A stretch of DNA of 64,000 bases, from positions 223,669 to 287,668 of the forward strand of contig NW_019217797.1 of NCBI RefSeq assembly GCF_002571385.2. Reading direction: 5' to 3'. Positions 53,274-55,077 of the stretch are shown here, piece by piece (the stretch's first letter is position 1; each line of letters starts with the position of its first letter). The notes beneath the pieces are model-generated. The model saw only the letters and a program-made list of their open reading frames with translations. It did not search any database and was not told the origin of the DNA. Both the position numbers and the translations under genes were made by a program. Source of the stretch: Stylophora pistillata. Lineage: Eukaryota.

Positions 53274-55077
53274 TTAGTTTGAACATAAACATTCCAAGAG
53301 CTCAAAAACTCTTTGATAAGATTTAAAAGCTATCAGTCCATTGCTATTGCTCCATTTCTTCCCACAGTCACCATCAGGTTTGTTGTATTTAAGCTCACAT
53401 TTATCAAGGGTTGTCTTATCAAGTTCCTTTGTAGTTGATTTCAATAACAGGGCTTCTTTAAAACTTACCACTCCTCCCCCCATGGAGCACAGAATTGCAT
53501 GTGCTGCACAGGTATCCCACTTGAAGGAAAAGGCACCAGAAAGGACAAAGAAATCAACATTGTCATCAATCACATGAAGAAGTTTGTTGCCAGCACCTGA
53601 ACTTGGAAATAATCATATTCCTGAAGATGATAGAGTCTTCTTAACATTTTCACTTTCACTACCACTTATTATTACCTTAAAATTATTACTTATTTGGGTG
53701 TCAGTTGATGCTTTATTTGACTTCCACTTATTTCCCAGGAAATGACAGGCACGTCCAGCATAACATACTCCCCAGAGCTTTCTTCCTTTCCAATGTCTTT
53801 CACTTGTATTCTCTTGGATTAACGTAGAAAATGGCTGATTAATAACCCCAACCACAGGTATACCAGTTTCACGATGAAATACTCCAATTAGAACAGTTGC
53901 ACAGGGTAACCCTGAAACTACAATGCCATCAACTTCCTTCCCTGGAGAATTTGACAGGTATTCTGTTGTAGAATCTGGCAAAAGAAGTTTGTGTATTATT
54001 AATTGAGGGTGCTGTAGTAAGTGACTGTAACAAACTTAATGAACCCTTTGTGAATGACTTTTATTTGTGATGTCCAAAAACATTAGCTATGACAATGGGG
54101 AAATATATATGAGTAACAGTGCCTATCCAAATTAAATTTTCAGTCAAAGAGAGGAATTATGTGATAATTTGGAGGTAACAAGCCATGTTCAACAGGAAAT
54201 TGTTTGAACCCAGTAGAACTTCATTATTAACCTTATCTGAACCAATGCATTTCAAAAGTAATGGTAAGATTTCCACACAGTCCCATATACTATTGTAAAG
54301 CAAAGCTGTAATCCTGAAGGCAATCTATTGTTACAACATCATTTCTTTTATCCAAGAACTATTGCATAATGATTATAGAGCTGTTCGGAAATCTTACCAA
54401 AGGCATGAAAGCATCTTAAAATGCACTCCACCCTAAGTCACCCTGTTCAATATTTTAAATGGCATCTATTACAATCATATAATTAAATTACCGATGGGAT
54501 CAATCCAGATTCCTAACTCATTCAGAGGAAGCTCAAAATCCAACTGCTCCTCCATTTCTTTTATTTGTTCCGTTTCCAAAACGATATCAGTATGAATGAG
54601 CTCTGCGAGTAGTCGAGCAGCAATCTCATTTCCGCATAACACTGTAGTCAGATGTTTTGAAGTGGATTCGGAGTCTTCTAGAACCTCAATTCTTAATTCT
54701 TGGCCAAAGCTGTTTTTGAATATGTTGGATTCCTCACCCAAAATGTGGCCTCTCAGTTCAGGAAACTACACGAATAAGAGAAAAAAGAAAAAAGAGTTAA
54801 ACTCCAATGATGACGCGATCGTTGTTTAAGGAACGAGCGTTCAAAAAATTGTTAACAATCAGCTCACTTTCAGCGTAACATCATGTTTCACGACCTCTTG
54901 TACCAAAACGTCGGCCAGCGTTTTAAAATCGCGAACAAATTGCTCATTCTTCTCCTTCTCTGGTTTCTCTTCAACCATCAATTCAAAAAGCTCCGCCTGA
55001 CAGCGCCATGCTCGTGCAATCTTGGCGGATTTTTCGCTGACTTGAAGCAGAACCTCGACAAGTTCTTTAGCGGCCAT
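53274..55077 (-). CDS. INPP1: Inositol polyphosphate 1-phosphatase, 394 codons with an in-frame TGA at codon 282 (53613-53615); complement(join(53274..53974,54492..54765,54868..55077))
   Basis: DFKTLADVLVQE, GEESN, IWIDPI|DST, VLIGV, PVVGVINQPF, GAGNK, FKWDTCAAHAIL..GGG motifs of INPP1; GT-AG junctions in frame. May be a nonsense allele/pseudogene. Confidence 0.9.

What the first reader, a model, noticed from the sequence alone, without database searches (positions are those of the whole stretch)
53613..53615. In-frame TGA in an otherwise intact INPP1: readthrough, selenocysteine, or loss-of-function allele
Seen: exon 3 reads ..KTLSSSGI-TGA-LFPSSGAGNKLLHVIDDNVDFFVLS..FKWDTCAAHAIL.. in one frame; the ORF track splits it into 53613..53981 and 53274..53573. 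No GT..AG pair removes the stop. The 112 downstream codons are undisrupted and hold the GAGxK and WD metal/substrate motifs essential in this Li-sensitive phosphatase family, so termination would give a dead 281-aa protein. From recall the position aligns with a non-catalytic Arg in human INPP1 (GDRIFGAAGAG), favouring a recent CGA/AGA>TGA change or base-call error over Sec. The context TGA-TTA is one base from the leaky TGA-CTA motif. I saw no convincing SECIS in the ~600 nt downstream. The stop is in the last coding exon and could escape EJC-dependent NMD.
Basis: partly seen in the sequence, partly recalled or inferred. Interest (0 to 1): 0.72.

Follow-up and report, generated by a model that had tools for sequence, protein, structure and literature searches.

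The report
False stop codon in coral INPP1
The stop codon inside this coral's inositol phosphatase gene is almost certainly an assembly error: sequencing runs that span the spot read arginine or glycine there and never a stop, so the gene is ordinary and intact.

Summary
The TGA at 53613-53615 is in the window as described, but it is not in the sequencing data. Of 8 public runs laid on the site, 5 span it. Three read AGA (Arg), two read GGA (Gly) and none reads TGA; the other 3 break exactly there. One sample shows both alleles, so the site is an ordinary Arg/Gly heterozygous SNP, and the window letter is neither allele. The same fault recurs: at 8 of 26 heterozygous sites nearby the window carries a letter found on neither haplotype. 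It is likely an allele written on the wrong strand during assembly. All 7 near-identical database proteins carry G or R at residue 282. None of 107 homologues with a residue in that column has Cys, and no SECIS was found. The gene is a normal three-exon, 394-aa INPP1. Readthrough, selenocysteine and a loss-of-function allele are all unsupported. One look-up of earlier scan notes found no report of this fault. Other in-frame stops in this assembly should be checked against reads.

The parts
53613..53615 (-). Codon 282 of INPP1; TGA in the window, AGA (Arg) or GGA (Gly) in sequencing runs; the wrong letter is at 53615
   Evidence: X1, X4, X15 read + strand T; X2, X3 read C; none reads A
54868..55077 (-). 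INPP1 coding exon 1 (70 codons; holds D56, equivalent of D54)
   Evidence: joint 54765/54868 in X8 and X15
54492..54765 (-). INPP1 coding exon 2 (EE pair 81-82; start of DPIDST)
   Evidence: joints in X8 and X15
53274..53974 (-). INPP1 last coding exon (GAGxK from 288, WD with D315, TAA stop)
52642..53273 (-). 3' untranslated region, at least to about 52642 (inferred from the length of the spliced X15 contig); no SECIS found
46850..46850 (.). Window letter C is neither allele (A/G)
54363..54363 (.). Window letter T is neither allele (A/G); intron 2
55240..55263 (.). Window letters at 55240, 55250, 55258 and 55263 are each the complement of one haplotype's letter; three of them are neither allele
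57018..57018 (.). Window letter T is neither allele (A/G)
61117..61117 (.). Window letter A is neither allele (C/T)

Best explanation
The runs that span codon 282 of this coral INPP1 read AGA or GGA, never TGA, so the stop is almost certainly an assembly error at a heterozygous site, likely made by writing an allele on the wrong strand. Shown: sample S1 carries both alleles, and the window letter is neither. Shown: the same neither-allele fault occurs at 7 more nearby heterozygous sites. Inferred: an allele or ambiguity code was not complemented when the sequence was turned. The gene-strand A of AGA then stands on the + strand, and the gene strand reads T. Inferred from homology: both alleles give a full 394-aa Mg-dependent, lithium-sensitive inositol polyphosphate 1-phosphatase with a tolerated Arg/Gly change at a variable position.
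For:: 8 of the 24 listed runs were laid. 5 of 8 span 53615: T in X1, X4 and X15, C in X2 and X3, A in 0 of 5. X5, X7 and X8 break at 53614, as an unresolved two-allele site would. X1, X2, X3 and X5 are one sample (S1). X15 is a spliced polyA RNA contig that differs from the window at 5 further 3' sites, so it is probably another genotype; 7 of 7 members of the near-identical protein cluster have a sense residue (3 G, 4 R). 3 of 3 and 15 of 15 listed members (of 88) of the next two clusters have R, including two named Pocillopora proteins; the window letter is neither allele at 8 of 18 non-A/T heterozygous sites and at 0 of 8 A/T sites (Fisher p = 0.031); four consecutive sites (55240-55263) all equal the complement of the haplotype that the window follows at 55193 and 55211; none of the 24 listed runs holds more than 0.96 of the words, and one substitution costs about 0.03.
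Against: Only contigs were available, no raw reads. Contigs drop rare variants, so a low-frequency TGA cannot be excluded directly. The alleles in X7 and X8 at the site were not seen. The strand mechanism is only modestly supported: with clustered sites removed it is 5 of 11 against 0 of 4 (p = 0.23). 10 of 18 non-A/T sites carry a correct letter. At a C/T or A/G site any wrong letter is by definition a complement, so that alone is no evidence. 36 rows of the variant table were not shown. Protein collections are biased against showing a stop allele as a full-length protein.
Confidence: 0.97

Rival explanations
1. TGA is a real, rare or somatic nonsense allele that gives a dead 281-aa enzyme.
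For: The letter is in the assembly. AGA to TGA and GGA to TGA are single changes. Truncation would remove the equivalents of G290, A291, K294 and D317, which bind substrate and metal (PMC7948987 passages).
Against: Sample S1 already shows two alleles, C and T, and a diploid has no room for a third germline allele. Seven other neither-allele letters lie nearby. No 281-aa member among the 7 of 7 cluster members read, and no other 100% hit in a search whose length range included 281. No second INPP1 copy: 3 of 5 matches are these exons and the other 2 are 35% identical.
Confidence: 0.02
2. TGA is read through to give the full enzyme (leaky stop).
For: The downstream 112 codons are intact and conserved. 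The context TGA-TTA is near the leaky UGA-CUA motif (motif recalled, not from a call).
Against: The spliced RNA contig has a sense codon (X15). Relatives have no stop there. The 113 nt after the codon fold no better than shuffles (-20.5 against -21.3 +/- 3.6 kcal/mol). 0 papers hold both 'INPP1' and 'stop codon readthrough'.
Confidence: 0.005
3. TGA encodes selenocysteine.
For: In-frame TGA in an animal gene; nothing else.
Against: 0 of 107 homologues with a residue in the column have Cys; the column is K38, T19, E18, R7, N6, I6 and others. The position is not among the catalytic residues named in PMC7948987. No SECIS family among the 5 weak Rfam matches at E <= 10 in 51800-54000. 0 pattern hits in 1274 nt (no positive control was run).
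Confidence: 0.002

Closest known systems
Inositol polyphosphate 1-phosphatase (INPP1; Pfam PF00459 Inositol_P; PDB 7kio, 1inp, 6wry)
   Same: Exon 3 matches 7kio_A at E 7e-39. The full protein P0109 passes Pfam's cut-off (107 bits against 27). The pattern D..EE..DPIDST..D of PMC7948987 is present at D56, E81-E82, D159-T164 and D315.
   Different: Nothing of note. Residue 282 is polymorphic (Arg/Gly) in this species; Gly was seen in no other homologue cluster (1 of 107, this species' own).
Assembly consensus error at a heterozygous site (false premature stop)
   Same: The window letter disagrees with all spanning contigs and falls on a two-allele site.
   Different: The wrong letter is neither allele and recurs at 8 of 26 sites, with a bias that suggests a strand-complement slip. 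Two paper searches (listings only) showed no title or abstract start describing this fault.
Eukaryotic selenoproteins and programmed stop-codon readthrough genes
   Same: In-frame TGA followed by a conserved open frame, as written in the window.
   Different: The TGA is not conserved and is absent from spanning contigs; no Cys alternation; no SECIS.

Membership tests
INPP1 / metal-dependent lithium-inhibited phosphomonoesterases | Pfam Inositol_P above the curated cut-off | tested here: met
INPP1 / metal-dependent lithium-inhibited phosphomonoesterases | Core pattern D..EE..DPIDxT..D (PMC7948987) | tested here: met
   D56, E81-E82, DPIDST from 159, D315 in P0109
INPP1 / metal-dependent lithium-inhibited phosphomonoesterases | Closer to INPP1 than to BPNT1 among solved structures | tested here: met
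   136 bits against 38 bits
INPP1 / metal-dependent lithium-inhibited phosphomonoesterases | Hydrolyses Ins(1,4)P2 or Ins(1,3,4)P3 and is inhibited by lithium | not testable with these tools
   needs an enzyme assay
Selenoprotein | In-frame UGA present in the mRNA | tested here: not met
   RNA run X15 reads AGA; 7 of 7 cluster proteins have G or R
Selenoprotein | Sec/Cys alternation in homologues | tested here: not met
   0 of 107 Cys
Selenoprotein | SECIS in the 3' UTR | tested here: not met
   (pattern scan without a positive control)
Programmed stop-codon readthrough gene | Stop conserved in individuals and sister species | tested here: not met
Programmed stop-codon readthrough gene | Stimulating 3' structure or CUAG context | tested here: not met
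   context TGA-TTAT; folding no better than shuffles; the motif itself is recalled
Natural nonsense allele | Stop allele seen in sequencing data | tested here: not met
   0 of 5 spanning runs; contigs only, so rare variants are not visible

The most novel reading that the evidence does not exclude
TGA is a real third allele at codon 282, somatic or rare in this coral, too scarce to survive into contigs and either null or rescued by readthrough.
Probability: 0.015. Interest if true: 0.45.

Novelty: not a real feature. Interest (0 to 1): 0.05.

Why it matters
Biologically it does not: the gene is an ordinary intact INPP1 with an Arg/Gly polymorphism. The practical value is a warning. In about 13.6 kb of sequence covered by long contigs of X1 (sum of the 8 pieces listed), 8 window letters match neither haplotype. 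If that holds elsewhere in G000 (extrapolation, not tested), this assembly will contain many false substitutions and some false stops. Any recoding or pseudogene claim from it then needs a check against reads.

Tried and rejected
Selenocysteine: rejected. Readthrough: rejected. A hidden intron removing the stop: no joint inside exon 3 in the two spliced runs. Pseudogene copy beside a functional paralogue: one DNA match only and no second close protein match. RNA editing of a genomic stop: DNA-type runs already carry the sense codons (X1, X2, X3; their kind is guessed by the tool). Counting 'wrong letter is in the complementary code' as evidence: rejected, because it is automatic at C/T and A/G sites. 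X4 and X7 share heterozygous sites with S1 and may be the same genotype, so I do not count them as independent individuals. Variant rows inside high-copy repeats (50606-50980, 52552, 57588) and 55703 (one contig near its end) were dropped before the count of 26 sites. Paper searches gave nothing that bears on the codon or on the strand fault (listings only). Pfam found no family for exons 1 and 2 alone or for two neighbouring frames.

Full report
Observation. The minus strand reads TGA at 53615-53613, in frame, with 112 open codons after it up to TAA at 53276-53274. The gene has three coding exons: 55077-54868, 54765-54492 and 53974-53274. Both introns appear as joints with CT..AC ends on the + strand in runs X8 and X15. 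The spliced frame has 395 codons with stops at 282 and 395.

Identity. Exon 3 read with X at the stop matches Pfam Inositol_P and solved INPP1 chains at E 7e-39, far above BPNT1; the stop aligns with an Arg in 7kio_A. The closest named relatives are stony-coral proteins: Pocillopora proteins differ at 46-47 of 393 residues, and 4 of the holding RNA runs are labelled coral metagenome. The organism is therefore inferred to be a stony coral. PMC7948987 (passages seen) gives the family pattern D54..E79E80..D153PID156S157T158..D317 and names G290, A291 and K294 as substrate contacts. The genome search found one DNA match and no second close copy: 3 of 5 protein matches are these exons and 2 are 35% identical.

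The decisive test. 24 runs were listed, 20 holding the stretch, from 9 studies; 8 were laid, all as contigs. At 53615 (window + strand A) X2 and X3 read C, giving GGA (Gly); X1, X4 and X15 read T, giving AGA (Arg). X5, X7 and X8 have contigs that end at 53614 and resume beyond the site. So 0 of 5 spanning runs read TGA. X1, X2, X3 and X5 are one sample (S1), which thus carries C and T. X15 is a polyA RNA library whose spliced contig spans all three exons and differs at five further 3' positions, so it is probably a second genotype. X4 and X7 share S1's heterozygous sites and may not be independent. No listed run holds more than 0.96 of the sampled words, and one substitution costs 31 of 971 words. 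This fits no listed run having the window's version, but it is a weak test with 100 words.

Proteins agree. All 7 of 7 members of the near-identical cluster have a sense residue at 282 (3 Gly, 4 Arg); P0109 and P0111 differ from the window only there. The next two clusters have Arg in 3 of 3 and 15 of 15 listed members (88 in that cluster, 40 read). Among 108 homologues, 107 have a residue in the column: K38, T19, E18, R7, N6, I6, S3, A2, Q2 and six singletons, with no Cys and no Trp. The position is variable. A caveat: gene callers would not list a stop allele as a full-length protein. Still, no 281-aa member and no second 100% hit appeared.

How the wrong letter arose. I tabulated 26 single-copy sites where S1 runs show two letters, leaving out rows in high-copy repeats and 55703; 36 rows were not shown. 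At 8 of 26 the window letter is neither allele: 46850, 53615, 54363, 55240, 55250, 55263, 57018 and 61117. All 8 are C/T or A/G sites: 8 of 18 non-A/T sites against 0 of 8 A/T sites, Fisher p = 0.031. A/T sites are immune to a failure to complement but not to random replacement. With clustered sites removed the contrast is 5 of 11 against 0 of 4, p = 0.23, so this support is modest. A phased stretch adds to it. The window follows one haplotype at 55193 and 55211, then shows the complement of that haplotype's letter at four consecutive sites, 55240, 55250, 55258 and 55263 (about 1 in 16 by chance, my arithmetic). The likely mechanism (inferred) is that some heterozygous letters or ambiguity codes were written without complementing. 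At codon 282 the A of AGA stands on the + strand, and the gene strand reads T. 10 of 18 non-A/T sites are correct, so only some sites were affected. The artefact verdict does not depend on this mechanism.

Recoding rivals. Rfam gave 5 weak matches at E <= 10 in 51800-54000, none a SECIS family and none at its gathering score. A simple SECIS pattern scan found 0 hits in 1274 nt (shuffle mean 0.04; no positive control), and the 113 nt after the codon fold no better than shuffles. The context is TGA-TTAT; the leaky CUAG motif is recalled, not from a call. A search for 'INPP1' with 'stop codon readthrough' returned 0 papers. Two searches for the error type (listings and abstract starts only) showed nothing on it.

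Earlier scan notes. One look-up in this genome gave 4 notes, none on this gene or this fault. Two mention premature stops in other genes of the same assembly. I did not test them, but they should be read with this fault in mind.

Verdict. Not a real feature: an ordinary INPP1 with an Arg/Gly polymorphism and a wrong letter in the assembly. Limits: contigs only, so a rare or somatic TGA is not directly excluded (about 2%). Interest 0.05.

Noticed in passing
window 46000-62400: Eight letters of the window match neither haplotype of sample S1, about one per 1.7 kb of covered sequence; this may be a systematic fault of the assembly G000.
   Followed up: partly
window 53615: Real Arg/Gly polymorphism at INPP1 residue 282; both forms occur among full-length proteins of the P0001 cluster (3 Gly, 4 Arg of 7 members, one of the Arg members partial). 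Gly was not seen in other homologues.
   Followed up: partly
window 52399-52671 and 41490-41767: Very high-copy repeat (89% identical pair in the window; summed depth in the hundreds of thousands) just behind the INPP1 3' UTR. It has a tRNA-like look, and a relaxed ARAGORN run gave a weak hit at about 52475-52561; possibly a SINE.
   Followed up: no
window 55386-55311, minus strand: An ATG-led short frame ending at a GT site about 300 bases upstream of the INPP1 start; may be a 5' exon, an upstream ORF or chance. The laid RNA contigs do not reach it.
   Followed up: no
window 49164-49430, minus strand: Frame that resembles an exon of a prefoldin subunit (resemblance recalled; Pfam gave no hit on this piece).
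   Followed up: partly
G000:C1025:11025-11417 and G000:C298:113882-114343: Two distant (35%) matches to INPP1, probably other members of the inositol monophosphatase family.
   Followed up: no
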